From: Candidatus Lokiarchaeum ossiferum
GTDB taxonomy: Archaea > Asgardarchaeota > Lokiarchaeia > Sigyniarchaeales > Promethearchaeaceae
Reading direction: 5' to 3'
Assembly (NCBI GenBank): GCA_025839675.1
Contig: CP104013.1
Location: 540,001-572,000, forward strand
Length of the DNA stretch: 32,000 bases
The number at the start of each line of letters is the position of its first letter. The first letter of the stretch is position 1. The notes under the pieces are model-generated. The model saw nothing but the letters and a program-made list of their open reading frames with translations, ran no database searches and was not told the origin of the DNA. This document shows positions 4,213 through 27,700 of this stretch, piece by piece. The translations under genes were made by a program, and so were the position numbers.

Positions 4213-4218
4213 AAACTT

Positions 4219-4222: not shown

Positions 4223-4231
4223 TTGAATTAT

Positions 4232-12208: not shown

Positions 12209-12229
12209 AACTTTGAGAGGAAGGAAAAA

Positions 12230-12448: not shown

Positions 12449-12688
12449 GGTGGAGCTACGACATTTACAATCGAAATTCCTATAATGAATTCTCCAAACT
12501 CACAACAGGATTCTGAAAATCGTTGTATATGTTGAAGAATTGTAAAAAAATAACGCTTTAATATTATTTAGTTCATCTTTTCTTGAGATTTGTTCATTTA
12601 TTTATTGACTACGAAGAAAAATTGATTATCTTCTTTGATGAATGTCAAAAATCAAAATTTTTTTATATTTCATTGAAAAGAAGATATT

Positions 12689-13537
12689 ATGGGGCATTAT
12701 CTTCGTCAAAAAGATTTAGAGTATTTATTTTCTTCAAAGATTACTGTATCCTCTATTGTTGAAGATTTAGATTTACTAGATATTTCTAATTCTGTAGAAG
12801 ACTTCCACGAACAAATGAAAACTAATAATTTTGATGTTTTTGGAGTTAAAAAAGATGGAAAAAATATTGGATATGTTAATTTGGTGGATATTCAAGACCA
12901 ATTAGAGAAAGAACCAGAAGAAAGGGATGTTATCGAAAATATTTATAAGGAATTTAAAATCGGAGAGCTGATATCTTCTCATACTCCAATTTTGAAAACC
13001 ATCCTTCTAATGAAAGAAAAAAAGCGTTTATTTATTCTAGAAAATGAAAAAATCTCTGGCATTATAACTAAAGCAGATTTGCAAAAGATCCCTGTCCGAG
13101 TTGTCCTTTTTGGATATATTAGTATCTTTGAACATTTCCTCAATACATTAATTAATGAAAAAGCACCTGAAATTAATTTATCTGGAATTATTCCAGAAGA
13201 AAAGATACAAGAAGCAAATAGACTTCTTGAACAAAAAAAAATAAATAAAGAAGAAATCGATTTAATTGGTTGTTTGACTTTATCTTCTAAAGCTAAAATT
13301 CTCCATAAGGGAATAGAAGGTAATACTTGTGAGACAATATTCAATATTTCTAAATCTAAACTTAGCAAAATTTGTTCCCATGCAGATAAGATTCGAAATA
13401 GTATATATCATTCTCAAAAAACTATTAGTTTGAATATCAAGGACAAGATTATGGATAATCTCCTCGAAATGCAAAAAATTTTGGATAATCAACCATTATT
13501 TTTTGATAATTGGCCGACTAAGAGTCTTCCAAATTAA
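12689..13537 (+). CDS. CBS-pair domain protein with C-terminal HEPN-like (R-N-x3-H) helical domain; candidate ligand-gated RNase
   Basis: 282-aa ORF flanked by 240 bp and 535 bp of non-coding DNA. Two CBS-like units: 'ITVSSIVEDLDLLDISNSVEDFHEQMKTNNFDVFGVKKDGKNIGYVNLVDI' and 'KIGELISSHTPILKTILLMKEKKRLFILENEKISGIITKADLQK'. The C-terminal helical part contains 'HADKIRNSIYHSQK' (R-N-S-I-Y-H at nt 13394-13411), which matches the HEPN Rx4-6H motif with the typical polar residue after the Arg. Confidence 0.65.
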   Translation: MGHYLRQKDLEYLFSSKITVSSIVEDLDLLDISNSVEDFHEQMKTNNFDVFGVKKDGKNIGYVNLVDIQDQLEKEPEERDVIENIYKEFKIGELISSHTPILKTILLMKEKKRLFILENEKISGIITKADLQKIPVRVVLFGYISIFEHFLNTLINEKAPEINLSGIIPEEKIQEANRLLEQKKINKEEIDLIGCLTLSSKAKILHKGIEGNTCETIFNISKSKLSKICSHADKIRNSIYHSQKTISLNIKDKIMDNLLEMQKILDNQPLFFDNWPTKSLPN

Positions 13538-14072: not shown

Positions 14073-16952
14073 GTGACTGCCAGACAGCGTCTTTGGCGGA
14101 TAGATCAAATCCATTTTGATGAAAACCAAGAATTCTATTATTACTCAGTAAGTAATGTTTCAGGGGTACCTTCTAATGAAGTACTCTTTCCTAGCATTGA
14201 ATCGATTAAAAAAAGTGAAATACCTCCTCCCGCAAAAGATAAATTAGGTTCTCCTCGATATCAACAACTCCTACTACAAGCACTCCGATTAGATTTAATT
14301 TATGGCACAACTTCTTTTATCAGCCTTCAAAATTCAAAAGTAATCCCCATTTCATATCAAATGGTTCCTGTTCTCATGGCGCTGAATATGAAAAAGGTGC
14401 GTTTACTTTTAGCCGATGATGTAGGTCTTGGTAAAACCGTAGAAACGGGACTTATTTTACAGGAATTATTAGGACGGAAACGAATTAATCGTGTGCTTTT
14501 TGTAACTCCGGCGAATCTTCGGGAGCAATGGCAAACTATTCTTCGTAATTTCTTTGGAATAGATGCCGTTATTATGTCTCGTCGTAATCGACGTCATCTG
14601 GAATCGGAATTATTAGTAGGAGGTAGTCCTTGGGGATACTACAATTTTGTGATTACATCTGTAGATTATGCCAAACAACTTGATGTACGCAGCGAAATAA
14701 TGCAATTTAATTGGGATATGGTAGTAATGGATGAAGCCCATAACATTATGATGCCACACGGAGGGGTAGATGATGTTGATAATAAAAACATTAAAAAAAG
14801 TTATTTATTTGCCCGTCAATTGACCGAAAAATATCCTCACCTTTTACTATTAACCGCGACTCCTCATAATGGCTATAAAGATTCATATACAAGCTTATTG
14901 AAGATGGTTAATCCCAATATTATTGAAGAGGTTGATACCGAAATTGAGATTGACAAAGATTTGGCAATTAACCATGTCTGCCAACGTCGAAGACATGATG
15001 TGGAACAATGGATCGGGGATCGCTATGAAAAAAGTCCATTTCCAGAACGCGATTCTGATGAGATTTTCATCACTCCTTCAGACCAATTCCACCATACTAT
15101 GGAAAAACTCTCTAAATTTGCGAATTATGTTATGAATTACGTAAATAAACTCACCACTGAAGATAATCAACGCAGTTATTGGACAATCTTACACTTTTTC
15201 AAACGTGCAATCAGTTCACCGGAAGCATTAATATGTTCTATTGATAATCGAAATGATGAAATAGATAAAAAATTAAATGAAAAACATCAAGCGATTGAAA
15301 ATTTAACACAGTTCCTTTCGATAGAAGAAGCCGGGCAATCAGTATTAGATGGTGCAGAAACCGATCGAATTTCGGAGGAAGAACGAGATATTCGAAACGA
15401 TCGAATTGTTTTAGCACAATCAATGGATTTATTATCCCAAGAAAAGGGTTTATTACTTGAGGTACAGGTAGAAGCGGAGAAATTAAAGAAAAAAGACAGA
15501 AAAGTGGATGAACTTATCAATGAAATTATTCCTAATTTATTAAAGAATTCCAAAAAAGTCATTCTATTCACCCGATATATCGACACGTTGAAATATATTC
15601 ACCAAAATCTCAAAGAAACCATAGATAGCGGATCGTTGCGATATAAAGGAATGGATCTCTTTTATGTGCATGGGCAACTCCCATCTCAAAAACGTATGGA
15701 AATTTATGACGATTTCTTAAAAAATCCTGCAGCGATTTTAATCTCCACGGATTGTATGGCAGAAGGGATTGATTTGCAATTTTCTGCCAATCAAATCATC
15801 AACTATGAATTGACCTGGAATCCGAACCGGCTTGAACAAAGGAATGGACGGGTGGATCGATTCGGACAACCGGAACCAAAGGTGTTCATCCGCACCTTGA
15901 TCATGAAAGACACGATTGAAATGGATATATTAGAATTACTTGTTAAAAAAGCTCAGAATATTAAAGAAGAATATGGATTTGTCCCCGGGTTTTTCGGAGA
16001 TCCAAAGGATATAATTGATCGCTTGACGAAAAGACGGAAAGAAAAACTAAAACCACAAGCAACTTTGGATAGCTATTTGAAATTAACTCCTAGAATAATG
16101 GATGATTTGGTCTCGACTTTCTACAATAAAGAAAATCTGGAAGAAATTCTGAAAGATTCATTTTACGGTCATAATAATATTGATTTACAAGAGATTGAAC
16201 ATCGGATGCAGATGAGTCAAGAAAAAATCGGTTCAAGCGCCACGATATTTGCATTCTTAAAATCTTCAGTGCAACTCTATAAAGGGAATCTAACTCAAGC
16301 TAAAGAAAACGAACATATTTTTGAGGTGCAATTACCACCCGAAATACTACATGATCTCAATGTAGAGGTGGAGGGCCCAATTCGGGTGACACAAAATATG
16401 AATCTTGGTGCTACACGAAAAGATGTTGATGCTTTGAGCTTAAAAAATGCTTTAATTGCTGGATTAATTGAAAAGGTAAAAAATGAAGCTTTTATTGAAG
16501 AAAAACAATTTTACGGTCGAACTGCAGCATTTACGTCTACACATGCCGAAACGGTAAAAGCAATATATCATCTGAAAATCCGGTATTATATAAACACTGA
16601 TCCACCGAGTATCACTGAAGAGATTACCACATTGGGTATAGATTTATTTTCTGAAGATATCTTAACCGAAAAGTCTATCAATCAAATAATCTCCGGTGAA
16701 ATGAATAATGCGGGGAAACCTGATGCATTTGTATTAAAACATATTGCCAAAGCATTAGAAAATACTGATCTGGAAATAAAATTTGAAGATCTTGCAAATC
16801 GACGAAAACAAGAATTGATTAATGAGCGTACTGATTTGATCCAACGATTACAGGAACAGGGTTTGACTGCAGATTTGCAGGGGATTTCAGATGTTAAAGT
16901 TGTGGGCACAGATCTTCTCACGATCGCTATAATCTATCCTCAAGGAGATTAA
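14073..16952 (+). CDS. drmD: SNF2-family helicase (DISARM DrmD-like)
   Basis: Motif I 'LLADDVGLGKTVETG' (nt 14425-14439). Motif II 'VVMDEAHN' (14730-14741). Motif III 'LLLTATPHNG'. Motif V 'STDCMAEGIDLQ'. Motif VI 'WNPNRLEQRNGRVDRFGQ' (~15838-15870). GTG 14073 is the first canonical start. The frame is open upstream to nt 14007 and encodes a plausible N-terminus ('SIPDFSIGEIVTARQRLWRI'), so the start is uncertain. Confidence 0.85.
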   Translation: MTARQRLWRIDQIHFDENQEFYYYSVSNVSGVPSNEVLFPSIESIKKSEIPPPAKDKLGSPRYQQLLLQALRLDLIYGTTSFISLQNSKVIPISYQMVPVLMALNMKKVRLLLADDVGLGKTVETGLILQELLGRKRINRVLFVTPANLREQWQTILRNFFGIDAVIMSRRNRRHLESELLVGGSPWGYYNFVITSVDYAKQLDVRSEIMQFNWDMVVMDEAHNIMMPHGGVDDVDNKNIKKSYLFARQLTEKYPHLLLLTATPHNGYKDSYTSLLKMVNPNIIEEVDTEIEIDKDLAINHVCQRRRHDVEQWIGDRYEKSPFPERDSDEIFITPSDQFHHTMEKLSKFANYVMNYVNKLTTEDNQRSYWTILHFFKRAISSPEALICSIDNRNDEIDKKLNEKHQAIENLTQFLSIEEAGQSVLDGAETDRISEEERDIRNDRIVLAQSMDLLSQEKGLLLEVQVEAEKLKKKDRKVDELINEIIPNLLKNSKKVILFTRYIDTLKYIHQNLKETIDSGSLRYKGMDLFYVHGQLPSQKRMEIYDDFLKNPAAILISTDCMAEGIDLQFSANQIINYELTWNPNRLEQRNGRVDRFGQPEPKVFIRTLIMKDTIEMDILELLVKKAQNIKEEYGFVPGFFGDPKDIIDRLTKRRKEKLKPQATLDSYLKLTPRIMDDLVSTFYNKENLEEILKDSFYGHNNIDLQEIEHRMQMSQEKIGSSATIFAFLKSSVQLYKGNLTQAKENEHIFEVQLPPEILHDLNVEVEGPIRVTQNMNLGATRKDVDALSLKNALIAGLIEKVKNEAFIEEKQFYGRTAAFTSTHAETVKAIYHLKIRYYINTDPPSITEEITTLGIDLFSEDILTEKSINQIISGEMNNAGKPDAFVLKHIAKALENTDLEIKFEDLANRRKQELINERTDLIQRLQEQGLTADLQGISDVKVVGTDLLTIAIIYPQGD
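16943..16947 (+). promoter_or_regulatory. Shine-Dalgarno AGGAG for the first methyltransferase gene
   Basis: AGGAG lies inside the last codons of the SNF2 gene, 11 nt before ATG 16959. Confidence 0.5.
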
Positions 16953-16958: not shown

Positions 16959-18803
16959 ATGGCATCACAAGCAAAATTATTACGAAATATTACCACTAAT
17001 GGAGGACTATTTACCGAAAATATTTTACTGAAATTACGGGATCGTCCCAATTCTAAGAATATTGGCAAAATAACTTATTTTTATTTTCCAGAAGAGATAG
17101 AAGAGATTCAAAAAACTGGAAATCCACCACAAACTCTCGATTCTCTTGAGATAAAGCAAAAACGGGAAAAGCTGAAATCCTTACAATCTTCTATTTTTAA
17201 TTGGGGACAACGTAAGTGGGAAGAAACATATCCTGATTTGGAATTAAATAAATTGGAAGATCCAGACATAGAAACAAAATGGTTGCTTCCTTTATTAGAA
17301 CAGATCGGTTATGAACTTGAGCCTTTTGACCGATCTTCTGATGATGGGACTGATACAGGGGTGTTAGGTGATTTTCAAATCAAATATCAAACAACAAATC
17401 CATCTATCCAATTGTTTTTTCATTTTGTTTGCCCTAATGATGATTTAGATAAAAAAATAAAAACAAATCCCAAACAACTTTCACATCATGATATTTGCCA
17501 GCAATATGTGAACTATCATCCAGATGTGAAATGGCTTATTCTTTCTAATGGTACTCAATTACGTCTCCTCTCTACATATTATTACTCATATTCTAAAGGT
17601 TATTTGGAGTTCAATCTAAAAGATATTTTTGGAGGAGATCTTCAGGAATTTTTAGTATTTTTTAATATATTGCATCCTTCTCGGTTTATAAAAATCGAAC
17701 CGGATAAACATTCACTTATTGAAGATTTTCAAGCAGAATCACAGGAAGAAGGTGTAAAAGTAGGAAATAATCTTCGAGATAATGTGCATAATGCAATCGA
17801 AACTCTAGGGAATCAGCTTATCCAACAAAATAACGAATTATATACAAATATTAAAAATGAAAAGATCAATTTACAAGAGTATTACGCCGAATTACTGCGA
17901 ATCATATACCGGATCATTTTCATTTTATATGCGGAGCAAAGAAATATGTTGCCCGGATCCGGAACGTTATATTTCAAAAATTTTTCCTTATCTTCCTTTC
18001 GGATGCTGGCAGAAAAACCAATTAAAAACGATTCCCAATCGGATTTATGGCAAAAACTTTTTGTTACTTTTCAACTAGTGAGAGATGGCAATAGTTTTAT
18101 GGGAATACCTTGTTTTAATGGAATCTTATTTGATAATACCAATTTGTCTATTTTATTTCCAGATGGTAAAGAAAAAGGTATTATATATTCAGTTTCAAAT
18201 GATATTACATTAGGGATCATCCGACTACTTACTACAGCCCAATTTGGAAACATTCGCCAACGCATCAATTTTATAGAAATTTCAGAGGAAGAAATTGGAG
18301 CTATTTATGAATCATTGCTTGAATATCGCCCAATATTTGATAAAAGAGGAAATTTTAATTTGGAATACGAATCTAATGAAAGGAAAGGTACCGGAACCTA
18401 TTATACTCCAAAAAATATAATTGATATCTTTATTAAAAATACGATAGAACCAAAAATTCGATTTATATTAGATGAACATGCTGGAAATCCACAGATACAG
18501 GAAAATGAAATAAGAAAATTAAAAATATGTGATCCTGCTTGTGGTAGTGGCACATTTCTTCTTTCAGTATTAGATTCTATGGGTGAACATTTAGCCAAAA
18601 TTCGTAGTCCAAATTCCTATCCAACTGAAATAGAATTAAGAAATGCACGACGTGAAATCTTACAACATTGCATTTATGGTGTCGATAAAAATCAACTTGC
18701 AGTGGAATTGTGTAAAATTTCTCTTTGGTTACGGGCATGTGTTAAGGATAAACCTTTGAATTTTCTCGATAATCATATTAAATGTGGAGATTCACTACTA
18801 GGT
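16959..18803 (+). repeat. Copy 1 of a ~1.85-kb diverged direct repeat (shared N-terminal half of the two methyltransferase genes)
   Basis: Aligns codon-for-codon with 20657-22503, from 'KLLRNITT.GGLFTENILL' to 'DNHIKCG.SL.G'. Long identical peptide runs are present (e.g. YYAELLRIIYRIIFILYAEQRNMLPGSGTLYFKNFSLSSFRM) despite many synonymous nucleotide differences. Confidence 0.85.
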
Positions 18804-20642
18804 ATTTTAGAAAAGAAAGAAAATTTAATGATTGAACCTACAAATTATAAAAATCTAAAGTGTAATCCTAATATCAAAAGGAAATTGATTCAACAATTAA
18901 AAAATGAGGTAAATTCTTTTAAAAAATCTAAAAATAAAATAGTACCTTTAACGAAATTCCTTGATTCTAATCAAATGGTTATATTCGACATAAAAAAATA
19001 TGAAAATATCAATAGTTTACCAGAAGATACAAAAGAAGATATTATTCTGAAAATGAGTAAATATAATCACTTACATGATGATCTTAATTTCAAAAAACTA
19101 AAACTAATATCAGATACGTGGATTTCGAGTTTTTTATGGTCAATTGATAAAAACATTAAGAGTATTGCAGATTTTTCTTATCCAAATAATATTTTGCTTG
19201 AAGAAATTAAATTAGGAAAAATATATAAGAGAAATAATTCTGAAGACACTTCTCAAATTAGTAAAATTCAAAAAATGGCAAAAAAAGAGAAGTTCTTTCA
19301 TTGGTATTTGGAATTTCCTGAAATTTTTAATAAACCTAACAAAGGCTTTGATTTTATTTTATCAAATCCACCATATGTCGAATCTCGTGGAATACCTGAC
19401 TATTATTGGAATTGGTTACGACTTCACTACAAGAGTTCATATAAAAAGTTTGATCTCTCGGTTGTTTTTCTCGAAAGGATCGTTCAGTTATTGAAACCTA
19501 ATGGAAAAGCAGCTATAATAACTTCAAATAAATGGTTAGTTGCAGATTATGGTTTGAAAATAAGAGAAATATATTTAAAAGAAACTAAAATTGAATCTAT
19601 TTATGACATCTCCCATTTAAATGTATTTTCTGAAGCCGATACTTATCCTATTATCATATTTGTTACTAAACCAGAATTAATTTCAAAGATTGAAGGAAAA
19701 GATACTTACTTATTCAAGCCTTCATCATTTAAAGAATTGTGGAATAATGATTATAAAAAAGAAAAATATGCGATCTCTCAAGGTTTTTTTGAAAGATTTC
19801 CTAATATTATATTTCCAACTACTATAGAACCTAAAAACATTATGTTATTAACCCACATTTGGAATTTACTTCCAAAATTTGCTTTTCTTCTTGGTGGACT
19901 AAATAGTCCATATGTTCTGAAAAAAGGAATACATACAGGCAATATAAAAGAAAAATTAATCTTAAAAAATCCATCTGTTATTCATGATTCGTTTAAGAAA
20001 TTAATTACAAGCCGAGAAAAAGTGGACAGATATCATTTTTCTTGGGAAGGATATTACGTTAATTATGATCCGAGTATTATTAAAAAGGAAAATGGAGAAT
20101 ATGGTAGCTTAAGAGAAAAATGGATATTTGAAAGTAATCCAAAAATTTTCATTAAATTATTTGGGAAGCGCATACAAGCGGCTTTAGATTCTGAAAAATA
20201 TTATGCTAATAATTCTATTATTATAGTTGTAAAAAACAATAATGAATCTAAAGAAAACTCAGATGAAATATTATCCATAAATAATGAATTTTATTATCTT
20301 ATAGGCATATTGAATTCTGATTTGATTTCAGTATTTTACAAAATAATATTTCATCATACTCATGTTCGAGGAGATTTTCTCCAATATTATATCAAAGATT
20401 TGGAAAATATTCCAATTATAAAGCCATCCACAGAAAATATTGAAACTGTTATTAAAATTGGAAAAATTGCAAAAAAGTTAATTAAATTATATATTACTGT
20501 AGAGATTAATAAAGATAAAATCCAAATCTTAGAAGATGAGTTGAATAATTTAATACATATTTTGTATAAGTTAGAACAATTAAATTTGGGTTCATCATGG
20601 AATGAATTAAAAAATCAATTCCTAGATTATATTGATTTTTAG
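16959..20642 (+). CDS. drmMI: N6-adenine DNA methyltransferase, Eco57I/type IIG-like, NPPY type (DISARM DrmMI-like), paralogue 1
   Basis: 1227 aa. SAM motif I 'KICDPACGSGTFLL' (nt 18531-18551). 'FFHWYLEFPEIF'. Catalytic motif IV 'ILSNPPYVESRG' (N-P-P-Y at 19365-19376). 'LLKPNGKAAIITSNKWL'. TaqI-C-like specificity signature 'YYLIGILNSDLISVFY'. The N-terminal ~610 aa are paralogous to the next ORF. Confidence 0.85.
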   Translation: MASQAKLLRNITTNGGLFTENILLKLRDRPNSKNIGKITYFYFPEEIEEIQKTGNPPQTLDSLEIKQKREKLKSLQSSIFNWGQRKWEETYPDLELNKLEDPDIETKWLLPLLEQIGYELEPFDRSSDDGTDTGVLGDFQIKYQTTNPSIQLFFHFVCPNDDLDKKIKTNPKQLSHHDICQQYVNYHPDVKWLILSNGTQLRLLSTYYYSYSKGYLEFNLKDIFGGDLQEFLVFFNILHPSRFIKIEPDKHSLIEDFQAESQEEGVKVGNNLRDNVHNAIETLGNQLIQQNNELYTNIKNEKINLQEYYAELLRIIYRIIFILYAEQRNMLPGSGTLYFKNFSLSSFRMLAEKPIKNDSQSDLWQKLFVTFQLVRDGNSFMGIPCFNGILFDNTNLSILFPDGKEKGIIYSVSNDITLGIIRLLTTAQFGNIRQRINFIEISEEEIGAIYESLLEYRPIFDKRGNFNLEYESNERKGTGTYYTPKNIIDIFIKNTIEPKIRFILDEHAGNPQIQENEIRKLKICDPACGSGTFLLSVLDSMGEHLAKIRSPNSYPTEIELRNARREILQHCIYGVDKNQLAVELCKISLWLRACVKDKPLNFLDNHIKCGDSLLGILEKKENLMIEPTNYKNLKCNPNIKRKLIQQLKNEVNSFKKSKNKIVPLTKFLDSNQMVIFDIKKYENINSLPEDTKEDIILKMSKYNHLHDDLNFKKLKLISDTWISSFLWSIDKNIKSIADFSYPNNILLEEIKLGKIYKRNNSEDTSQISKIQKMAKKEKFFHWYLEFPEIFNKPNKGFDFILSNPPYVESRGIPDYYWNWLRLHYKSSYKKFDLSVVFLERIVQLLKPNGKAAIITSNKWLVADYGLKIREIYLKETKIESIYDISHLNVFSEADTYPIIIFVTKPELISKIEGKDTYLFKPSSFKELWNNDYKKEKYAISQGFFERFPNIIFPTTIEPKNIMLLTHIWNLLPKFAFLLGGLNSPYVLKKGIHTGNIKEKLILKNPSVIHDSFKKLITSREKVDRYHFSWEGYYVNYDPSIIKKENGEYGSLREKWIFESNPKIFIKLFGKRIQAALDSEKYYANNSIIIVVKNNNESKENSDEILSINNEFYYLIGILNSDLISVFYKIIFHHTHVRGDFLQYYIKDLENIPIIKPSTENIETVIKIGKIAKKLIKLYITVEINKDKIQILEDELNNLIHILYKLEQLNLGSSWNELKNQFLDYIDF

Positions 20643-20645
20643 GAG
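20641..20645 (+). promoter_or_regulatory. Shine-Dalgarno AGGAG for the second methyltransferase gene
   Basis: AGGAG overlaps the TAG stop of paralogue 1 (20640-20642) and lies 11 nt before ATG 20657. Confidence 0.5.
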
Positions 20646-20656
20646 TTAACAAATCA

Positions 20657-22503
20657 ATGACATCAAACGCAAAATTATTACGGAATATAACCACCAGTGG
20701 GGGACTGTTTACAGAAAATATTTTATTGCGATTACGAGATCAACCCAATTCAAAGAATATCGGTAAAGCTACATATTTTTATTCAGTAAAAGAAATAGAA
20801 GAGATAAAAAATACTGGAAAATCACCACAAACTCTTGACTCTCTAGGCATTAAACAAAGACAGGAAAGATTAAATTCCCTTAGAACCACAATTTTCGATT
20901 GGGCACAGCGGAAATGGGAAGAAATTTTTCCAGATATGAAACTACATAAAGTAATAAAATCCGATATTGAAAAGAAATGGTTACTTCCCTTATTTGAACA
21001 GATTGGTTATGAACTTGAACCATTTAACCAATCATCAAGTGAAGAATTCGATACCGAGGTTCTTGGCGATTTTCATATTAAGTATCAACCAAAAATCCCC
21101 AAAGTGCAAGTTTATTTCCATTTTGTTTCTCCCTATGATGATCTCGATCAAAAAGTAAAATCAAATCCAAAACAACTCTCCCATCATGAAATTTGTCAAC
21201 AATTTGTGAACTATCATCCCAATGTGAAATGGTTAATCCTATCAAATGGCACACAACTGCGGCTCCTCTCAACATACTACTATTCTTATTCTAAAGGTTA
21301 TGTAGAGTTTAATTTACAAGATATTTTTGGTGGGGATCTGCAAGAATTCAAAGTAATGTTCAATATGATACATCCTTCTAGGTTTGTCGGTATCGAATCA
21401 GAGAAAAAATTGCTTATTGAAGATTTCCAAGCAGAATCAAAAGAAGAAGGAGTAAAGGTGGGAGATAATCTCCGGGATAATGTACATAATGCAATCGAAA
21501 TGCTCGGTAATAAGCTAATTCAACAGAATGATGAGCTTTATAAGCAAACTAAACAGGAAAAGATCGATTTACAAAAATACTATGCCGAATTATTACGGAT
21601 CATCTACCGGATCATTTTCATTTTATATGCAGAACAAAGAAATATGCTGCCTGGATCTGGAACTCTATATTTCAAGAATTTTTCCTTATCTTCATTTCGG
21701 ATGATGGCAGAAAAACCAATTAAGAATGATTCCCAATCAGACTTATGGCAAAAACTCTTCTTAACTTTTCAGCTTGTTAAAAATGGAAATAAAAAAATGG
21801 GGGTGCCATGCTTTAATGGAAGTCTCTTCGATAATACAAATTTATCAATTTTATTTCCTAATGGTGGAAAAGAAGGTATAAAATACATTATCTCAAATGA
21901 TATCTTATTAAGAATCATCCGGTTACTCACAACTGCTCAAATAGGCAATATTCTCCAAAGAATTAATTTTATTGAAATATCTGAAGAAGAAATTGGAGCT
22001 ATATATGAATCCTTACTTGACTATTTTCCTGTTTTTAGCAAAAGGGATCAATTTAAACTCCCCTATCAAACCACTGAGCGAAAGGGTACGGGTTCTTATT
22101 ATACTCCCAAATCTTTAATTGATATTTTATTGAAAACAACGTTAAAACCATTGATAGACGATACACTTGCAAATATCGGAATTGATCCTTTTGACCAAGA
22201 AAAAGCGATATTAAGAATCAAAATTTGCGATCCTGCTTGTGGTGGAGGTACCTTTTTACTATCTGCTTTAGATTTTATTGGAGAAAAATTAGCAAAAATT
22301 CGTAAAACAGATTCAAGTCCAACAGAGGATGACTTACGACATGCTCGTCGCGATGTCTTACAAAATTGCATCTATGGTGTTGATAAAAATTCCCTTGCGG
22401 TTGAATTATGTAAAATATCTCTTTGGTTACGAGCATGTGTTAAGGATAAACCGTTGAATTATCTCGATAATCATATAAAATGCGGGAATTCCTTAATTGG
22501 ATT
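20657..22503 (+). repeat. Copy 2 of the ~1.85-kb diverged direct repeat
   Basis: See copy 1 (16959-18803). Same orientation, with starts 3.7 kb apart. Confidence 0.85.
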
Positions 22504-24757
22504 TGGAAAAAACCCTGAAAGTTTATTAATTTCAGATAAAAATTTTAAGGCTTTGAAAGGAAATAAACAAACAGGAATTGAATCTGAAAATAAGAAATTA
22601 TGGAATGAAATTAAAAAACAAGTTCAGGATGAATTAAAAAATCTAAAGAAAACAAAAGCAAAACCTGGAACTTTGACAAAATTTCTCCCTGGACAAGAAC
22701 TAAAGTTGGATATTAAAAAATTTCAAGAAATCAGTAATATGACTGAAAATTCAATTGAAGAAATAAATCTGAAAAAAAAAAAATATACTGAATGTTTTAA
22801 CCGAGAGATCTATAAATCTCTAAAATATTATGCAGATGCATGGACGGCCAGTTTTTTTTGGCCATTAGAAGAGAAAAATGTTAGATTTATTGATTATAAA
22901 TATCCTAATAATACTTTATTAAATGATCTGAAAAATGGACGTATTATTAGCAAAAGTCAAAAAATATTAGAGAATATTTCTGAAATTTCTAAGCAATATC
23001 AATTTTTCCATTGGTATTTAGAATTTCCTGAAGTTTTTGATAAAAAAAAGCAAGGATTTGATTTAATTTTAGGAAACCCACCATGGGATGTTATTGAATT
23101 CAAAGAAAATGAATTTTTTATTGGAAAAGATTTGGAAATAACTCAAGCAGGAAATCAATCTAAACGCAGAGAATTGATTAAATCTCGCAAAAATACTAAT
23201 CATTCTTTGTGGAAAACATATAAGCAAAATTATAATCAATTATTGAAAGAAAAACACTTTTATTCTCAGTCTAATTTTTACTTTTACACTGCTAAAGGAA
23301 AAATGAATTTATATCCACTTTTTACTGAAAAATTTAGCAATTTACTAACAAAACAAGGAAGACTTGGTTATATTGTACCTTCAAAACTCATTACAAATTA
23401 TTTTATGCAAGATTTTTTTAACAAATTAGTCAATGAGAAGAAAATAATCTCTCTTTTTGATTTTAATAATAAAGAAAATCTTTTTAGAGGCATAAGTTCT
23501 CAGCAGAAATTTTGCCTGATTTCTTTAGGAAATGTGTCGAAGGAATCTAAATTTATCCCAATGGCTTTTGAATTGGAAAAAATTGAAGAAATAAATCCTG
23601 TCTTAAATTTAATGGAATATTATAATTTAGAAGATATTTCAAATCAATTAAATCTTGATTCAAAACTTTTATTATTAGAGAGTAATGATTTTCAAACTTT
23701 TAATCCGAATACAAAAACATGTCCAATTTTCACTAACAATTTCACTTACAAAATTTTTAAGAAAGCATATAAGTATCCAATTTTAATTTTAAGAGATGAA
23801 TCAAATAATGAATTAAAAAATTGTTGTAATATCGAAATATCAACTATTTTTAATGCTGCTTCTGATTCAAATCTATTTATTGAGAAAAAAGATTTAGAAA
23901 AATTAAAAGTTGAATCAGAAAATAAATTATCCGGTGGAATATGGAAAGATGATAAAAATAAATATCTACCACTATACGCTGGAAAAATGGTATGGCAATA
24001 TGATCATAGATATCAAGGAATAATTAAAACAAAAGCAGCACAAAGAAATGAAAAATCTTTCGCAATTTCTGAGGAACAGAAGAAAAATATTCAATTTTAC
24101 AACATACCTGCATATTGGATCAAAGAAGAAGATTTTATGGCAAATCTTCCCAAAAAATGGAATAAAAAGTGGTTTTTTGCATTTAGAGATATAACAGGAT
24201 CAAAAAACGAGAGATCATTAGTCTGTTCGATAATTCCATTTTATCCAAGCAATCATACACTTCCAATTGTATACCAAAAGGAAGATAATGAACATAATGC
24301 GGAAAATCTTTGTATACTCATCGCTAATTTTAATACTCTTATTATGGATTACATCGCCCGTCAAAAGATATCCAGTCAACATATGAGTTTTTATGTAGTT
24401 GAACAATTACCTGTCATTCCTTTTGAAAAATATCCTACAAATATAAAAGCCCTGATAGTGAACAAAATCTTAAAATTATCTTATAATTCTCTAGATTTAG
24501 AAGAATTTGCCAAAGATTTAAATTTTACAGAAAATCCCTTTATTTGGAATGAAGAAATTAGACTTAAAATAAAATGTGAGATTGATGCAATTTATGCATT
24601 GTTATATAAAATTGAGCGAGATGAATTGGAAAAGATTATTGAAACATTTGATGTTTTAGAGAAAAAGGAATTAGATAAATATGGTTCTTTTAAAACTAAA
24701 AGTTTAATCTTAGATAATTTTGATAAATTTGCACAAAAATTGGAGTTGTTTGAATAA
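20657..24757 (+). CDS. drmMI: N6-adenine DNA methyltransferase, type IIG-like, NPPW type (DISARM DrmMI-like), paralogue 2 with a different catalytic/target-recognition half
   Basis: 1366 aa. Motif I 'KICDPACGGGTFLL' (nt 22229-22249). 'FFHWYLEFPEVF'. Motif IV 'ILGNPPWDVIEF' (N-P-P-W at 23075-23086). 'MNLYPLFTEKFSNLLTKQGRLGYIVPSKL'. The C-terminal ~650 aa ('ERSLVCSIIP', 'FYVVEQLPVIPF', 'CEIDAIYALLYKIERDELEKI') are unrelated to paralogue 1. The TAA stop abuts the next ATG (TAAATG at 24755-24760). Confidence 0.85.
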   Translation: MTSNAKLLRNITTSGGLFTENILLRLRDQPNSKNIGKATYFYSVKEIEEIKNTGKSPQTLDSLGIKQRQERLNSLRTTIFDWAQRKWEEIFPDMKLHKVIKSDIEKKWLLPLFEQIGYELEPFNQSSSEEFDTEVLGDFHIKYQPKIPKVQVYFHFVSPYDDLDQKVKSNPKQLSHHEICQQFVNYHPNVKWLILSNGTQLRLLSTYYYSYSKGYVEFNLQDIFGGDLQEFKVMFNMIHPSRFVGIESEKKLLIEDFQAESKEEGVKVGDNLRDNVHNAIEMLGNKLIQQNDELYKQTKQEKIDLQKYYAELLRIIYRIIFILYAEQRNMLPGSGTLYFKNFSLSSFRMMAEKPIKNDSQSDLWQKLFLTFQLVKNGNKKMGVPCFNGSLFDNTNLSILFPNGGKEGIKYIISNDILLRIIRLLTTAQIGNILQRINFIEISEEEIGAIYESLLDYFPVFSKRDQFKLPYQTTERKGTGSYYTPKSLIDILLKTTLKPLIDDTLANIGIDPFDQEKAILRIKICDPACGGGTFLLSALDFIGEKLAKIRKTDSSPTEDDLRHARRDVLQNCIYGVDKNSLAVELCKISLWLRACVKDKPLNYLDNHIKCGNSLIGFGKNPESLLISDKNFKALKGNKQTGIESENKKLWNEIKKQVQDELKNLKKTKAKPGTLTKFLPGQELKLDIKKFQEISNMTENSIEEINLKKKKYTECFNREIYKSLKYYADAWTASFFWPLEEKNVRFIDYKYPNNTLLNDLKNGRIISKSQKILENISEISKQYQFFHWYLEFPEVFDKKKQGFDLILGNPPWDVIEFKENEFFIGKDLEITQAGNQSKRRELIKSRKNTNHSLWKTYKQNYNQLLKEKHFYSQSNFYFYTAKGKMNLYPLFTEKFSNLLTKQGRLGYIVPSKLITNYFMQDFFNKLVNEKKIISLFDFNNKENLFRGISSQQKFCLISLGNVSKESKFIPMAFELEKIEEINPVLNLMEYYNLEDISNQLNLDSKLLLLESNDFQTFNPNTKTCPIFTNNFTYKIFKKAYKYPILILRDESNNELKNCCNIEISTIFNAASDSNLFIEKKDLEKLKVESENKLSGGIWKDDKNKYLPLYAGKMVWQYDHRYQGIIKTKAAQRNEKSFAISEEQKKNIQFYNIPAYWIKEEDFMANLPKKWNKKWFFAFRDITGSKNERSLVCSIIPFYPSNHTLPIVYQKEDNEHNAENLCILIANFNTLIMDYIARQKISSQHMSFYVVEQLPVIPFEKYPTNIKALIVNKILKLSYNSLDLEEFAKDLNFTENPFIWNEEIRLKIKCEIDAIYALLYKIERDELEKIIETFDVLEKKELDKYGSFKTKSLILDNFDKFAQKLELFE
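22772..22783 (+). repeat. A12 homopolymer (four AAA Lys codons) inside methyltransferase paralogue 2, upstream of the NPPW motif
   Basis: Read directly: ...aatctg aaaaaaaaaaaa tatact..., encoding 'NLKKKKYTE'. This is the longest mononucleotide run I noticed inside a coding region in the window. Confidence 0.9.
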
Positions 24758-27700
24758 ATGCCAGAACAATTAAAAAGACAAAAACCACAAAACATTTTTT
24801 TAATGGCCGATCGTCTACAAGAGACGTATGAACAATTTGTCCGTTCATTCCAATATTTTCAAAATGAGAAAATTCAAACGTGGGTGGACGATCAGATGGA
24901 AAAGCACGATCTACTTTTCCGAGATCCGTATATTGAATTGAATTTCCAATTTGAAAATGGAATTCCACTTGCAGAGATGGTCACCCAAAACTATATGCAT
25001 GCAAGAATCCCAGAAATCTTCAAAATTTCTCCCTACAAACACCAATCTCAAGCAATTACTCGGATTCTCAAAGAAAACCAAAATATTATCGTGTCCACGG
25101 GAACGGGCTCCGGAAAAAGCTTGTGTTATTGGATTCCTATTATCAATACATGTCTGGAAATGAAGCAGAAAGGATTAGACGGGATTAAAGCAATTGTTAT
25201 TTTCCCGATGAATGCCTTAGCCAATTCTCAATACAATGCATTGGTGGATACAATCCAAGATTATACGGATCTCAAAGTTGGGCGATATACAGGAGATACA
25301 GCATACTCACGGAAAGAAGGGGAGAAATTACTAGAAGAACGCGCCACACGAGAACCTTACAAATGTGAATATCTCTCCCGGCAAGAGATGCAAGATAACC
25401 CCCCCGATATTCTTATTACGAATTATGTAATGTTGGATCTCTTACTTATGCGGCATGATGATAAAAAACTCTTTCCCGGAAAACATGAAGGTCACCTCAA
25501 ATACCTCGTCTTAGATGAAATTCACACCTATAATGGAAATACGGGATCGGATGTAGCTTGTCTCGTTCGCCGATTGAAGGAAAAAACCAATACCATTGGA
25601 AAACTCCGCTGTATTGGCACTAGTGCAACCATTCAGGATAATAAAAAAGACACCGATCCAAATCAACCTTCTTCGATTATCGAATTTGCAGAAAAAATAT
25701 TTGGAGAACCCTTCACCAACAATAGTTTAATTACAGCAACGCACATCAAATCAGATGTTACATTCGATAAAATCGTGAAACTCCCAAAAACCATTAAAAT
25801 TGATACTGAGGAACTGAATGCCTTTGATGGAACCCTCCCTACAACGATTCCAATCGCAAATAAATTACTCGCGAGCCCTCTCACTTCAGAGGAAGTGGGC
25901 GATGAATTTCAATTAGGTGTTAAATTTGAATATCATGAAACGATTTTATTCCTCCAAGATCAACTCAAAGAAATCGCTCAATCACTTAAAGATCTTGCCA
26001 CCACCTACCGATCCAAATTACGACCGGGAGAATCCGAAGCAAAATGTTTACAAGAGTTAAAAGCCGCATTTTTAGTGGGAACCGTCGGAAAAATTACCAA
26101 AAACGAAGAAAAACGCCCATTAATTGTGCCAAAACTGCATCTCTTCTTCTCCCGAGGGCACGATATTCACTCCAGTCTCACCCAACTCGGCCCTTATCCC
26201 ACGATAGATGGGAATGTCATTTGCCACGAAACCGAATACAAGACCTACCCGATGTATTTCTGTCGGAATTGTGGGCATGAATTTTATAGTGTGATCATAT
26301 CCGAAGATAATATGGTCTATCCGCGCAATTTAGATGAAGAACAACCCGGAAAACTTTTCTATCTCACCCCTATCACTGATGCGAATAATAATTGGGAGGT
26401 TCCCGAACAATGGATCAATACAAAAGGCGATGTAAAGAAGAGTTACCAACCTGCGCAACCCACACGAACATTATACTGTCCGAAACATAACGTGATCGAA
26501 AGCACGTGCGGATGTCCTAAAGTATTGGAAGTCTGGCAGATTGCCTATCCGATCCAACTCTGTCCTTCATGTAATATTTTTTATACCAAACGCAAAGGTG
26601 AATATGGAAAACTCTTTTCGTTCAACTCCACCGGACGGAGTTCTTCCACCGATGTCTTAACGGCTAAGCTCTTGAGAAATTTATCACGAGACCAAAAAAA
26701 GTTAATTGTTTTTACCGATAACCGTCAAGATACGTCATTGCAAGCAGAACATTTGAATGAATTTCAACGACGCTTGAATTTTCGCCAGATCATGCTCGGA
26801 GTTCTCCAAAAAATTCACACACATGGCGATCGGATCACGGATCTCGAAATTGGGAATTATATCTTCGCATATCTTTCCGAAACAGGAAAACTCCCCGAGT
26901 ACAGTATCGAAGAAGCGGATGAGTTTAGTTCGGCTCCCCCGCCCATTATTGAATATAAAAGTTTTCTCACATATTTGGCAGTATCCGATATTATGCAGTC
27001 CAATTATTTCCTCGACCTCAATCTGGATAAATTGGGAATTTTAAAAATCGAGTACGATATGTTGCATAAACTCGCCGGACACTCTCAATTAACCAATCAT
27101 TTTATCTTTAAACGATATAACCCCACTCAGAATTATGATTATATGCGAGGATTGCTGGATATATTCAGGTGGAATGGGGCAATTGCAAACGGGAATTTTA
27201 GCAAATCGGGGAGTAAATTCAAACAATGGGAACGAAAAATTAAGGCAGACCTCCTCTTCGATATTAACAAAAATCATTTTACCAATTTTGGCTATACATT
27301 TGAGATACCGAAAAATCCCAAGACAAATAAACGCAGTCGGGTGCTCTATGATAACTACGCAGTATCATTGAAAAGTTTGACTGGTAATAACTCCGTAATT
27401 CTTAATTGGACCCAAAAATTCTTCAAAGTGGAAAAAGAGGATGCGGAAAAAATTATCATTGAAATGATTCAAATTCTCGAAAAAACCAAATTTATCCAAA
27501 AGATCTGGGCGGATCGTCCGAAAACCGATTTTTACCAAATCGCAGAAGGCAAAATCCTTTTCAAATTAAACGCAGAAGAGCAATTTCAGCAATGTCCCAA
27601 ATGCCATAAAGTGTTTTATTTTGATGAATTTTCCGAGTGTGCGTGGCGGAATTGTCCGACCCTCAAATCTCATATTGTTGATCATGACAATTATTACTAC

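What the first reader, a model, noticed from the sequence alone, without database searches (positions are those of the whole stretch)
16959..24757. Tandem paralogous methyltransferases: a shared ~610-aa N-terminal half grafted onto two unrelated catalytic/specificity halves
The first ~1.85 kb of the two genes (16959-18803 vs 20657-22503) align without gaps. Most residues are identical by eye, with perfect runs such as 'YYAELLRIIYRIIFILYAEQRNMLPGSGTLYFKNFSLSSFRM'. The nucleotide sequences nonetheless differ at many synonymous positions (e.g. gcggagcaaagaaatatgttgcccggatccggaacgtta vs gcagaacaaagaaatatgctgcctggatctggaactcta). This points to an old duplication with both copies under purifying selection, not an assembly artefact. 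Beyond 'DNHIKCG.SL.G' similarity drops to short islands (FFHWYLEFPE, GFD.IL.NPP). Past motif IV (NPPY vs NPPW) the proteins are unrelated. One carries a TaqI-C-like 'GILNSDL' recognition module and the other a longer type IIG-like module. The system may therefore mark two different DNA motifs through a common docking or sensing domain. The direct repeats could also recombine to delete one specificity.
Basis: seen in the sequence. Interest (0 to 1): 0.75.

Follow-up and report, generated by a model that had tools for sequence, protein, structure and literature searches.

The report
ARMADA defence operon with chimeric second methyltransferase
In the cultured Asgard archaeon Lokiarchaeum ossiferum, an ARMADA-type anti-virus operon carries its normal DNA methyltransferase plus a second one assembled from a copy of the first 800 residues of that enzyme and the catalytic/DNA-reading end of an ordinary Asgard "orphan" methyltransferase, which probably gives the system a second DNA mark.

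Summary
Genes 16959-20642 (A, 1227 aa) and 20657-24757 (B, 1366 aa) align without gaps over aa 1-615. That stretch is 75% identical in protein and in DNA (dS 1.3, dN/dS 0.13), and the arrangement recurs in independent assemblies.

The interpretation needs correcting. The window is from Ca. Lokiarchaeum ossiferum B-35. The genes lie in a four-gene ARMADA Type I operon: SNF2/BrxHII-like helicase, A, B, YprA/DruE-like helicase. B is the canonical ArmB (NPPW), collinear with the single methyltransferase in 80 of 80 loci from other prokaryotes. A is the derived chimera.
- aa 1-796 are ArmB-like and already include SAM-binding motifs X and I-III.
- From motif IV (NPPY) to the end, A is 50% identical to a conserved, syntenic, nuclease-free ~630-aa methyltransferase family of Promethearchaeota. 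It nests inside that family with 100% bootstrap.

A second Lokiarchaeal clade (five loci) built an analogous chimera from a different donor at the same junction.

Both copies keep all catalytic motifs and family-conserved residues. The most likely function is a second specificity module plugged into one helicase-nuclease machinery, but this is untested. Recombination between the repeats is unlikely: the longest identical run is 26 nt.

This is a new variant of a known system.

The parts
14073..16952 (+). ArmA: SNF2/RapA/BrxHII-like helicase (959 aa), first gene of the operon
   Evidence: Pfam SNF2-rel_dom, Helicase_C and ResIII. PADLOC DrmD 5.7e-103 and BrxHII 2.3e-76. NCBIfam DISARM_DrmD scores 379 bits, below its 610-bit cut-off, and RapA gives 5e-43. 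It is conserved next to the methyltransferase in all related loci.
16943..16947 (+). AGGAG Shine-Dalgarno-like motif 11 nt upstream of the ATG of gene A, inside the 3' end of armA
   Evidence: Alignment of the two upstream regions. The gap between armA and A is 6 nt.
16959..20642 (+). Gene A (1227 aa, NEF87_000479, UYP44194.1): chimeric second methyltransferase, with an ArmB-derived N part and an orphan-methyltransferase-derived C part
16959..18368 (+). A aa 1-470: non-catalytic N-terminal module of ArmB (alpha/beta domain plus helical domain). It is 77% identical to the same part of B.
   Evidence: No Pfam family hits this part. The AF2 model has pLDDT 86.8, and its best PDB matches are MmeI, PglX/BrxX and DrdV. 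Remote homologues carry Pfam MmeI_N and MmeI_hel. A and B have evolved at equal rates here. No D...(D/E)xK triad is conserved in the family.
18369..18803 (+). A aa 471-615: SAM-binding half of the gamma-class methyltransferase fold (motifs X, I, II, III). It is 68% identical to B.
   Evidence: Pfam N6_Mtase and MmeI_Mtase hits cover aa 470-597. DPACGSGTFL, YGVDKN and NHIKCGDSL can be read. A evolves faster than B here, 17 versus 5 changes, p = 0.017.
18804..19346 (+). A aa 616-796: ArmB/PglX-type helical insertion between motifs III and IV, ending in FFHWYLEFPEIF. It is 37% identical to B.
   Evidence: BLASTP E 2e-35. It is helical in the model. The PADLOC DrmMI model spans aa 471-858.
19347..20642 (+). 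A aa 797-1227: motif IV (NPPY) to motif VIII plus a TaqI_C-type target-recognition domain, derived from a conserved Promethearchaeota orphan methyltransferase family
   Evidence: It is 50% identical to P0064 (Promethearchaeum syntrophicum), aligned from FD.I..NPPY to the C-terminus. It nests in that family with 100% bootstrap. It keeps 101 of 112 family-conserved columns. Pfam Eco57I and TaqI_C hits. The model matches CamA over its whole length, TM 0.75.
20641..20645 (+). AGGAG Shine-Dalgarno-like motif upstream of gene B, overlapping the stop codon of A
   Evidence: The gap between A and B is 14 nt.
20657..24757 (+). Gene B (1366 aa, NEF87_000480, UYP44195.1): canonical ArmB, the PglX-like N6-adenine methyltransferase with motif IV NPPW
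   Evidence: It is collinear over its full length with the single methyltransferase of loci L006-L104. Eighty-eight of the related methyltransferases have NPPW. PADLOC DrmMI 3.5e-86 and type IIG 9e-62.
20657..22501 (+). B aa 1-615: N-terminal module plus SAM-binding half, the counterpart of A aa 1-615
   Evidence: It keeps 98 of 103 family-conserved columns.
22502..23056 (+). B aa 616-800: helical insertion plus FFHWYLEFPEVF
23057..24757 (+). B aa 801-1366: motif IV (NPPW) onward, the ArmB-type catalytic half and large C-terminal recognition module
   Evidence: tblastn matches to B_C in about 90 loci. The C-terminal 190 aa resemble the Alw26I/Eco31I/Esp3I methyltransferase C-terminus, 1.3e-13.
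24758..30109 (+). ArmC: YprA/DruE-like DEAD-box helicase (1783 aa) with a weak MZB/DUF1998 match. It starts at the base after B's stop codon.
   Evidence: Pfam DEAD and Helicase_C. PADLOC DruE 3e-115. MZB E 1e-3 at aa ~1543-1628. It is conserved in related loci.

Best explanation
The locus is an ARMADA Type I anti-virus operon (armA SNF2 helicase, armB methyltransferase, armC YprA-like helicase-nuclease) of Ca. Lokiarchaeum ossiferum. It has acquired a second methyltransferase gene between armA and armB.

Shown:
- B is the canonical ArmB.
- A is a chimera. Its first ~796 residues are a diverged copy of the resident ArmB. They comprise the non-catalytic N-terminal module, SAM-binding motifs X and I-III, and the helical insertion.
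- From motif IV onward, A's catalytic half and TaqI_C target-recognition domain come from a ~630-aa methyltransferase family. That family is conserved in Promethearchaeota, lies in a syntenic housekeeping neighbourhood, and has no adjacent nuclease.
- The hybrid is predicted to fold as one intact CamA-like m6A methyltransferase.
- An analogous chimera, with the same junction but a different donor family, arose separately in another Lokiarchaeal clade.

Inferred:
- The crossover used the motif-IV sequence (GFD.I..NPP) that both parents share.
- The retained ArmB N-terminal module couples a methyltransferase to the ArmA/ArmC machinery, by analogy with BREX PglX and MANTIS MtsC, which need partner proteins.
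- A therefore acts as a second specificity subunit. The host would be marked at two unrelated motifs, and DNA lacking either mark would be exposed to the same helicase-nuclease effector.
For: System identity:
- Domain content and gene order match the description of ARMADA Type I in archaea (PMC12458937).
- The same three genes are linked in 80 of 80 GTDB loci and in about 20 Asgard-like loci.

A's N part derives from the resident ArmB:
- win_A and win_B are sisters with 100% bootstrap.
- They share 106 derived states in aa 1-470.

A's C part derives from the orphan family:
- 50% identity starting exactly at motif IV.
- It nests inside the family in 100 of 100 bootstraps.
- 101 of 112 family-conserved columns are kept.
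- The donors lie in a syntenic context without a nuclease: PAP2, the methyltransferase, an Arf-like GTPase, VWA, proteasome alpha.

Independent second chimera:
- The L004/L005/L095/L096/L098 A-type has N-halves that group within another ArmB clade (99-100%).
- Its C parts are only 27% identical to win_A and group with other standalone methyltransferases.
- Monophyly of all A-types gets 0% support.
- The same three-zone identity profile is seen in every A/B pair.

Both copies look functional:
- dN/dS is 0.13.
- A keeps 93 of 103 and B 98 of 103 columns that are at least 90% conserved in 100 ArmB N-halves.
- Motifs I-IV are intact in both.
- The model of A aa 440-1227 has pLDDT 90.3 and pTM 0.91. 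It superposes on CamA over ~780 columns with TM 0.75.
- The operon is tight, with gaps of 6, 14 and 0 nt and an AGGAG before each methyltransferase gene.

ArmB as the specificity component: the NPPW mutant abolishes defence, and armB is the most variable gene of E. coli ARMADA II islands (PMC13463889).
Against: - No methylation, binding or defence data exist for this locus, or for any ARMADA Type I system that I could find.
- Whether ARMADA discriminates self by methylation at specific motifs has not been shown. The published work tested only defence phenotypes of ARMADA II.
- The role of the N-terminal module as a docking surface is an analogy, not a result.
- The linker (aa 616-796) is far more diverged (37%) than the N-half (75%), and its phylogeny is unresolved. 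win_A groups with the other A-types in 47% of bootstraps. A single ancient A-type with later gene conversion therefore cannot be excluded.
- The trees are neighbour-joining trees on corrected p-distances, not maximum likelihood.
Confidence: 0.6

Rival explanations
1. The evolutionary history is different. One ancient A-type paralogue arose once in Lokiarchaeia. Its N-half was later homogenised with the resident ArmB by gene conversion ending at motif III, in at least the L. ossiferum lineage. Its C part was replaced once by another standalone methyltransferase. Under this reading the within-genome similarity reflects concerted evolution rather than independent duplications.
For: - Identity drops sharply at the same place, just after motif III, in all A/B pairs.
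- The linker is much more diverged than expected for the N-half identity: 33-37% against roughly 60% in ArmB orthologue pairs with similar N-half identity.
- In the linker tree win_A groups with the other A-types in 47% of bootstraps, against 13.5% with win_B.
Against: - It needs more events: at least two conversions with the same end-point, a C-part replacement, and many losses of A in single-methyltransferase Asgard loci (10 informative single loci).
- Within the L004/L005 clade, A-types group with A-types and B with B (100% and 98%), so there has been no ongoing conversion there.
- The linker grouping has low support and joins the longest branches, so long-branch attraction is plausible.
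- dS of 1.3 shows that no recent conversion occurred.
Confidence: 0.2
2. A is essentially the lineage's housekeeping orphan methyltransferase, relocated into the operon. It makes the ancestral Promethearchaeota m6A mark for chromosome functions. The ArmB N part provides only expression or regulation. ARMADA's self/non-self decision rests on B alone.
For: - The donor family is widespread, strongly conserved even in its recognition domain (112 columns at least 90% conserved in 28 members), and lies in a conserved housekeeping neighbourhood without a nuclease.
- None of the 60 hits to A's C part comes from the 6.03-Mb L. ossiferum chromosome, so A may be the species' only copy of that family.
Against: - The 470-aa non-catalytic ArmB module is kept under the same constraint as in B, with equal rates and 93 of 103 conserved columns. 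That is hard to explain if A does not use ArmB-specific functions.
- A second, independent chimera uses a different donor, which points to selection for coupling foreign specificity modules to the ArmB scaffold.
- Absence of a standalone copy in L. ossiferum was not checked directly on the genome.
Confidence: 0.15
3. A and B cooperate on a single target. B hemimethylates an asymmetric motif, and A modifies the other strand or an overlapping sequence, as in type IIS systems that have two methyltransferases. The locus would then still define one recognition site.
For: - PglX-like enzymes methylate one strand of asymmetric sites (BREX PMC11341690; MANTIS preprint).
- B's C-terminus resembles the Alw26I/Eco31I/Esp3I type IIS methyltransferase family.
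- The genes are adjacent and co-oriented.
Against: - Single-methyltransferase ARMADA is the rule (80 of 80 and 10 of 16 informative Asgard loci), so B does not need a partner methyltransferase.
- A's recognition domain was inherited from a free-standing family with its own conserved specificity.
- Two different donor families were recruited in two clades, which is unlikely if the partner had to match B's site.
Confidence: 0.1
4. A is a decaying or non-catalytic duplicate, for example a decoy for viral anti-ArmB inhibitors or a regulatory subunit, and adds no methylation specificity.
For: - A's SAM-binding half evolves faster than B's, 17 versus 5 lineage-specific changes.
- The analogous A-type genes of the other clade use weak start codons, ATA or TTG.
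Against: - The ORF is intact in all assemblies.
- dN/dS is 0.13.
- All catalytic motifs are present.
- 101 of 112 donor-family columns and 93 of 103 ArmB columns are kept.
- The model shows a confident, complete CamA-like fold.
Confidence: 0.05

Closest known systems
ARMADA Type I (ArmA/ArmB/ArmC; Bell et al., bioRxiv 2025, PMC12458937)
   Same: It has the same three protein families: a BrxHII/RapA-like SNF2 helicase, a PglX-like NPPW methyltransferase, and a YprA/DruE-like helicase. It has the archaeal gene order helicase, methyltransferase, YprA. There is no GajB-like ArmD.
   Different: It has two methyltransferase genes instead of one. The extra one is a chimera of ArmB with an unrelated standalone methyltransferase. 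The paper's main text contains no occurrence of 'duplicat' or 'paralog'. Only ARMADA Type II has been tested experimentally.
BREX PglX/BrxX (specificity factor and methyltransferase of BREX; PDB 8C45, 8Q56, 9EWZ)
   Same: It has the same overall architecture: an N-terminal module, a gamma-class methyltransferase with a helical insertion before FxxEFPEVF-GFD-NPP[YW], and a large C-terminal recognition part. Foldseek matches both models. In BREX the methyltransferase is the swappable specificity determinant.
   Different: NCBIfam BREX PglX models score far below their cut-offs, 100 bits against 500. There are no BrxA, BrxB, BrxC, BrxL or PglZ genes. The partners here are two helicases.
DISARM class I (DrmD, DrmMI, DrmA, DrmB, DrmC)
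   Same: The best PADLOC hits of the SNF2 helicase and of both methyltransferases are DrmD and DrmMI.
   Different: The helicase is a single DruE-like YprA protein, not separate DrmA and DrmB. No PLD nuclease DrmC is present. The NCBIfam DrmD score is below its cut-off.
CamA / M.TaqI-type standalone gamma-class m6A methyltransferases with a TaqI_C recognition domain
   Same: A's aa 797-1227 belong to this kind by sequence (Pfam Eco57I and TaqI_C; phmmer hits to CamA and TaqI). The whole aa 440-1227 model superposes on CamA (TM 0.75).
   Different: A's SAM-binding half and its 470-aa N-terminal module are not from this family. They come from ArmB. A ~180-aa helical insertion lies between motifs III and IV.
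Type IIG/IIL restriction-modification enzymes (MmeI, DrdV, BpuSI)
   Same: The domain order is N-terminal alpha/beta domain, helical spacer, methyltransferase, recognition domain. Remote sequence homologues carry MmeI_N and MmeI_hel. MmeI is the top Foldseek hit of the N-half.
   Different: No conserved PD-(D/E)xK catalytic triad is present in the N-terminal domain of the ArmB family. In ARMADA the nuclease activity is assigned to ArmC.
Multi-specificity R-M arrangements (type I systems with several hsdS genes; type IIS systems with two methyltransferases)
   Same: One effector machinery is served by more than one DNA-recognition module encoded side by side.
   Different: Here the alternative module is a complete methyltransferase polypeptide made by splicing within the catalytic fold. 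There are no inverted repeats or recombinase nearby that would suggest phase-variable shuffling.

Membership tests
ARMADA Type I | YprA-family (DruE-like) DEAD/DEAH helicase with an OB-CON-DUF1998 array | tested here: met
   Pfam DEAD 5e-26 and Helicase_C 6e-14. PADLOC DruE 3e-115. The MZB/DUF1998 match is only weak, E 1e-3 and below the gathering score. It is 26-56% identical over its full length to the helicase of about 100 related loci.
ARMADA Type I | C-terminal Vsr-type PD-(D/E)xK nuclease domain on the YprA helicase | tested here: inconclusive
   About 155 aa follow the MZB match, but no Pfam nuclease family was detected at E of 5 or less. No structure was predicted for this part.
ARMADA Type I | BrxHII/RapA-like SNF2 helicase encoded next to the methyltransferase | tested here: met
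   Pfam SNF2-rel_dom and Helicase_C. PADLOC BrxHII 2.3e-76 and DrmD 5.7e-103. NCBIfam RapA 5e-43.
ARMADA Type I | PglX-like N6-adenine methyltransferase (ArmB) with an NPPW catalytic motif | tested here: met
   B has DPACGGGTFL and NPPW. Eighty-eight of the related methyltransferases have NPPW. Foldseek matches PglX/BrxX.
ARMADA Type I | Archaeal gene order helicase, methyltransferase, YprA, with no GajB-like ArmD (which would make it Type II) | tested here: met
   ORF order is shown. The downstream gene is a 301-aa HSDR_N-like protein, not a UvrD helicase. The order is described in PMC12458937.
ARMADA Type I | Anti-phage activity that depends on all components | not testable with these tools
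   This was shown only for E. coli ARMADA Type II.
BREX (PglX) | Score above the NCBIfam BREX PglX cut-offs, and presence of PglZ, BrxC and BrxL | tested here: not met
   Best BREX_1_MTaseX score is 99.8 bits against a cut-off of 500. No PglZ, BrxC or BrxL was found among the ORFs scanned.
DISARM class I | Separate DrmA helicase and DrmB (DUF1998) plus the DrmC PLD nuclease | tested here: not met
   There is one fused 1783-aa helicase whose DrmA hits are weak (3.8e-18) against DruE at 3e-115. No PLD-domain ORF is present in the window. DrmD scores 379 bits, below its 610-bit cut-off.
Type IIG/IIL restriction-modification enzyme (MmeI-like) | Active PD-(D/E)xK endonuclease motif in the N-terminal domain | tested here: not met
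   Of the 103 columns at least 90% conserved in 100 ArmB N-halves, none forms a D...(D/E)xK triad in aa 100-200. The conserved residues there are W108, P152, H177, Q181, N185, W192, N197, G198 and R202.
Gamma-class N6-adenine DNA methyltransferase (both A and B) | Motif order X, I, II, III, IV-VIII with FxGxG and NPP[YW], followed by a recognition domain | tested here: met
   Pfam N6_Mtase and Eco57I hit both proteins. The model of A superposes on CamA, M.BseCI and M.TaqI. Catalytic activity itself was not tested.
Promethearchaeota ~630-aa orphan methyltransferase family (C part of A only) | Membership by phylogeny and by conserved columns from motif IV to the C-terminus | tested here: met
   100 of 100 bootstraps. 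101 of 112 conserved columns are kept, against a range of 0.88-1.0 among true members. A's N-terminal ~210 aa equivalent is not from this family; the alignment with P0064 starts at its residue 211.

The most novel reading that the evidence does not exclude
Lokiarchaeal ARMADA systems have repeatedly captured the catalytic half and recognition domain of resident standalone methyltransferases by splicing them, inside the Rossmann fold at motif IV, onto the ArmB scaffold. In L. ossiferum the donor is the lineage-wide housekeeping orphan enzyme, and no standalone copy was detected in that genome. The defence system would then read the ancestral chromosomal m6A mark as 'self'. One polypeptide would serve both housekeeping epigenetics and immunity. 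The ArmB N-terminal ~600 residues would be a portable adaptor that turns any gamma-class methyltransferase into a specificity subunit of a helicase-nuclease effector.
Probability: 0.2. Interest if true: 0.75.

Novelty: new variant of a known kind. Interest (0 to 1): 0.58.

Why it matters
ARMADA was named only in 2025, and how it tells self from non-self is unknown. This locus is a natural domain-swap experiment. The same ~600-800-residue ArmB scaffold is kept under equal constraint on two methyltransferases with unrelated recognition parts. The same splice point was used twice independently.

That points to two things:
- which part of ArmB talks to the helicases, namely the N-terminal module;
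- where specificity modules can be exchanged, namely at motif IV, inside the catalytic fold.

This is useful for engineering BREX/ARMADA-like systems. It also gives a concrete prediction of two m6A motifs that can be tested in one of the very few cultured Asgard archaea. If the captured module still makes the lineage's housekeeping mark, the locus would link chromosomal epigenetics and immunity in the closest cultured relatives of eukaryotes.

Tried and rejected
- Assembly artefact or recent duplication: rejected. Four contigs from at least three runs agree, and dS is 1.3.
- BREX or DISARM membership: rejected on cut-offs and missing genes.
- Active type IIG nuclease in the shared N-terminal domain: rejected. 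No catalytic triad is conserved.
- Pfam on aa 1-470 alone: no family found.
- PDB sequence search with B: no hit.
- Metagenome scan with protein A alone: no relatives. A second scan with an Asgard N-terminal alignment gave 16 loci.
- Linker phylogeny to decide between one and two origins: unresolved, 47% against 13.5%.
- A Biopython bootstrap run timed out and was replaced by a numpy neighbour-joining implementation.
- Organism names for the donor-family hits: the cluster look-up gave none.
- Published methylome of L. ossiferum, or any description of two-methyltransferase ARMADA, BREX or DISARM: none found.
- Vsr nuclease in ArmC: not detected by Pfam.
- tRNA genes or repeats suggesting phase-variable shuffling: none.
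- MANTIS/Gao_RL as the same system: rejected, because its partner proteins are different.

Full report
**1. Observation**

The window has two adjacent + strand ORFs at exactly the stated coordinates: A, 16959-20642 (1227 aa), and B, 20657-24757 (1366 aa). MAFFT aligns residues 1-615 of both without a gap.
- Over these 615 codons protein identity is 75.0% and nucleotide identity 75.3%.
- Nei-Gojobori gives pS 0.62, dS 1.31, dN 0.166 and dN/dS 0.126. No 50-codon window exceeds 0.32.
- The longest identical nucleotide run is 26 nt. Only two runs reach 20 nt.

Identity then drops in two steps.
- Residues 616-796 are still clearly homologous (37%, BLASTP E 2e-35).
- After motif IV nothing significant remains by BLASTP.

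Both proteins are exact matches to NEF87_000479 and NEF87_000480 of Candidatus Lokiarchaeum ossiferum B-35 (6.03-Mb chromosome). The same arrangement is on contigs from at least three independent sequencing runs.

**2. Context**

A and B are the second and third genes of a tight four-gene operon, with intergenic gaps of 6, 14 and 0 nt. An AGGAG motif precedes each methyltransferase gene.
- Upstream is a 959-aa SNF2/RapA/BrxHII-like helicase at 14073-16952.
- Downstream is a 1783-aa DEAD-box helicase at 24758-30109. Its best match by far is DruE of Druantia (PADLOC 3e-115), and it has a weak MZB/DUF1998 match.

This trio and the archaeal gene order are what Bell et al. (bioRxiv 2025, PMC12458937) named ARMADA Type I: a SNF2/BrxHII-like helicase, a PglX-like NPPW methyltransferase and a YprA/DruE-like helicase. 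BREX and DISARM are excluded. NCBIfam scores are far below the cut-offs, and PglZ, BrxC, DrmB and DrmC are absent.

A scan of one genome per GTDB species returned 80 loci from many bacterial and archaeal phyla. Every one links the same three genes and has a single methyltransferase that is collinear with B over its full length. B is therefore the canonical ArmB.

**3. What A is**

The N-half of A has its closest relatives in Asgard archaea, at 44-61% identity.

The C part of A tells a different story. It is 44-50% identical to some 28 clusters of standalone ~630-aa Eco57I/TaqI_C methyltransferases of Promethearchaeota, including the one of Promethearchaeum syntrophicum MK-D1.
- The BLASTP alignment with that protein runs from its residue 211 to 631 and from A's residue 797 to 1204. 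It starts exactly at FD.I..NPPY, which is motif IV.
- In a neighbour-joining tree of C parts, A falls inside this family in 100 of 100 bootstraps.
- A keeps 101 of the 112 columns that are at least 90% conserved in the family. True members keep 88-100%.
- In two complete genomes the standalone gene lies in the same housekeeping neighbourhood: PAP2, a small ORF, the methyltransferase, an Arf-like GTPase, a VWA protein and proteasome alpha. There is no nuclease gene nearby, so it behaves as a conserved orphan methyltransferase.

A is thus a chimera.
- Residues 1-~796 are ArmB-like.
- Residues ~797-1227 are orphan-like.

The junction lies within the Rossmann fold. The ArmB-derived part brings motif X, motifs I-III, the ArmB/PglX-type helical insertion and FFHWYLEFPE. 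The orphan-derived part brings motifs IV-VIII and the TaqI_C recognition domain.

An AlphaFold2 model of A aa 440-1227 is confident (pLDDT 90.3, pTM 0.91). It superposes over its whole length on the orphan methyltransferase CamA (TM 0.75 on the target, ~780 columns). The next matches are BrxX/PglX, M.BseCI, MmeI and M.TaqI. The hybrid is therefore predicted to be one intact enzyme.

**4. Origin of the shared half**

In trees of aa 1-615, A and B of the window are sisters with 100% support. They share 106 derived states in aa 1-470 relative to 18 other Asgard-like ArmB proteins.

Other Lokiarchaeal contigs also have a tandem pair: L004, L005, L095, L096 and L098. Their extra methyltransferase is different.
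- Its N-half groups, with 99-100% support, inside another ArmB clade.
- Its C part is only 27% identical to A's. Its closest relatives are other standalone TaqI_C methyltransferases, at 36-39%.
- Monophyly of all extra methyltransferases gets 0% support in both the N-half tree and the C-part tree.

Every within-genome pair shows the same three-zone identity profile, with steps after motif III and at motif IV. The simplest reading is two independent chimeras with the same architecture.

The alternative is one ancient paralogue followed by gene conversion of the N-half and a later swap of the C part. It is not excluded, for two reasons.
- The linker is more diverged than expected.
- The linker tree is unresolved, 47% against 13.5%.

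Among 16 informative Asgard-like loci, 6 are tandem and 10 single. Among 80 loci from other lineages, none is tandem.

**5. The shared N-terminal module**

Pfam finds nothing in aa 1-470.
- The AF2 model (pLDDT 86.8) has an alpha/beta domain and a helical domain before the methyltransferase. Its best PDB matches are MmeI, PglX/BrxX and DrdV.
- Remote sequence homologues carry MmeI_N and MmeI_hel.
- Across 100 ArmB N-halves, 103 columns are at least 90% conserved. None forms a PD-(D/E)xK triad, so the domain is not an active MmeI-type nuclease.

A keeps 93 of these columns, B keeps 98, and the other clade's extra methyltransferases keep 94-97.

Lineage-specific changes in aa 1-470 are equal in A and B, 12 against 11. 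In the SAM-binding half, aa 471-615, A has changed more, 17 against 5 (p = 0.017). That is what one would expect if this half had to adapt to a foreign catalytic half.

**6. Mechanism**

The anatomy and history above are shown. The following is inferred.
- In E. coli ARMADA II, ArmB and its NPPW motif are required for defence, and armB is the most variable gene of the island.
- In BREX, PglX is the specificity factor. In MANTIS, the PglX-like methyltransferase works only when loaded by partner ATPases.
- By analogy, the ArmB N-terminal module is the part that integrates a methyltransferase into the ArmA/ArmC machinery.

A would then be a second specificity subunit. The host would be marked at two unrelated motifs, and DNA lacking either mark would be restricted.

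Confidence in the anatomy and the chimera is about 0.9. Confidence in the two-specificity function is about 0.5.

Rivals:
- A is mainly the relocated housekeeping methyltransferase. No standalone copy from the 6.03-Mb chromosome appeared among the 60 hits, though this was not verified on the genome.
- A and B act on the two strands of one site.
- A is a non-catalytic decoy or a decaying copy. This is disfavoured by dN/dS, intact motifs and conserved columns.

**7.

- [quoted passage not shown] is only half right. Only A is grafted. The graft point is motif IV, not residue 615. The shared part already contains the SAM-binding half of the catalytic domain.
- Recombination between the repeats would leave a normal single-ArmB operon and is conceivable. 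It is improbable at 75% identity, and no deletion form was seen in any assembly.

**8. Novelty and score**

The system (ARMADA I) and all domain families are known. I found no description of:
- a tandem ArmB pair;
- splicing of an orphan methyltransferase's catalytic half and recognition domain onto the ArmB scaffold;
- recurrence of that splicing in a second clade.

I rate it a new variant of a known kind, with interest 0.58. It is a clear, testable natural domain swap in a cultured Asgard archaeon, but not a new kind of system, and the functional claim is untested.

Noticed in passing
window 24758-30109: The ArmC helicase gene has GC 0.39 and GC3 0.39. The other three operon genes have GC3 0.16-0.29 and the flanks have GC ~0.30. 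The operon may be compositionally mosaic, for example through a more recent exchange of armC.
   Followed up: partly
window 592-13537: The upstream 13 kb looks like a defence or mobile-element island. It holds a 1206-aa ResIII-like protein (592-4212) and an FRG+UDG fusion matching PADLOC candidate PDC-S15 (4217-6163). On the minus strand is an ArdC-N plus zincin (MPTase-PolyVal) anti-restriction-type protein (6229-7293). A 1563-aa NERD plus P-loop NTPase (7517-12208) and a CBS-domain protein (12689-13537) follow.
   Followed up: partly
window 30344-31249: A 301-aa HSDR_N/DUF8426 (PD-(D/E)xK-like) protein is encoded directly downstream of ArmC on the same strand. It is also present in the other assemblies of this locus. 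Whether it belongs to the system is unknown.
   Followed up: no
L004:4887, L005:9767, L096:7441, L098:5587: In the other Lokiarchaeal clade the extra methyltransferase gene starts with ATA or TTG behind a GGAGG/GGTGG motif, right after the SNF2 stop codon. The canonical ArmB genes start with ATG. This may keep the extra subunit at low abundance.
   Followed up: partly
L004:566-1670; L088:2514-3203: Ubiquitin-like and E2 (UQ_con) genes, and an NYN nuclease, lie immediately next to the ARMADA SNF2 gene in two Asgard contigs. In L088 the ubiquitin/E2 gene lies between the helicase and a truncated ArmB fragment.
   Followed up: no
L006:6193-10200; L087:1203-6387; L089:2698-6596: Several Asgard ArmB genes are interrupted. 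L006 has one in-frame stop in the linker, and L087 and L089 are split into two ORFs. These could be MAG errors, pseudogenes or recoding.
   Followed up: no
L106:6001-7905; L107:6001-7917: The ~630-aa standalone methyltransferase that donated A's C part occupies the same housekeeping neighbourhood in two complete Promethearchaeota genomes (PAP2, the methyltransferase, an Arf-like GTPase, VWA, proteasome alpha). Its recognition domain is unusually conserved. This suggests a lineage-wide orphan m6A methyltransferase of unknown motif.
   Followed up: partly
window 24121-24682 (B aa 1155-1342): The C-terminal ~190 aa of the canonical ArmB match the C-terminus of the Alw26I/Eco31I/Esp3I type IIS methyltransferase family (NCBIfam TIGR02987, 1.3e-13).
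   Followed up: no
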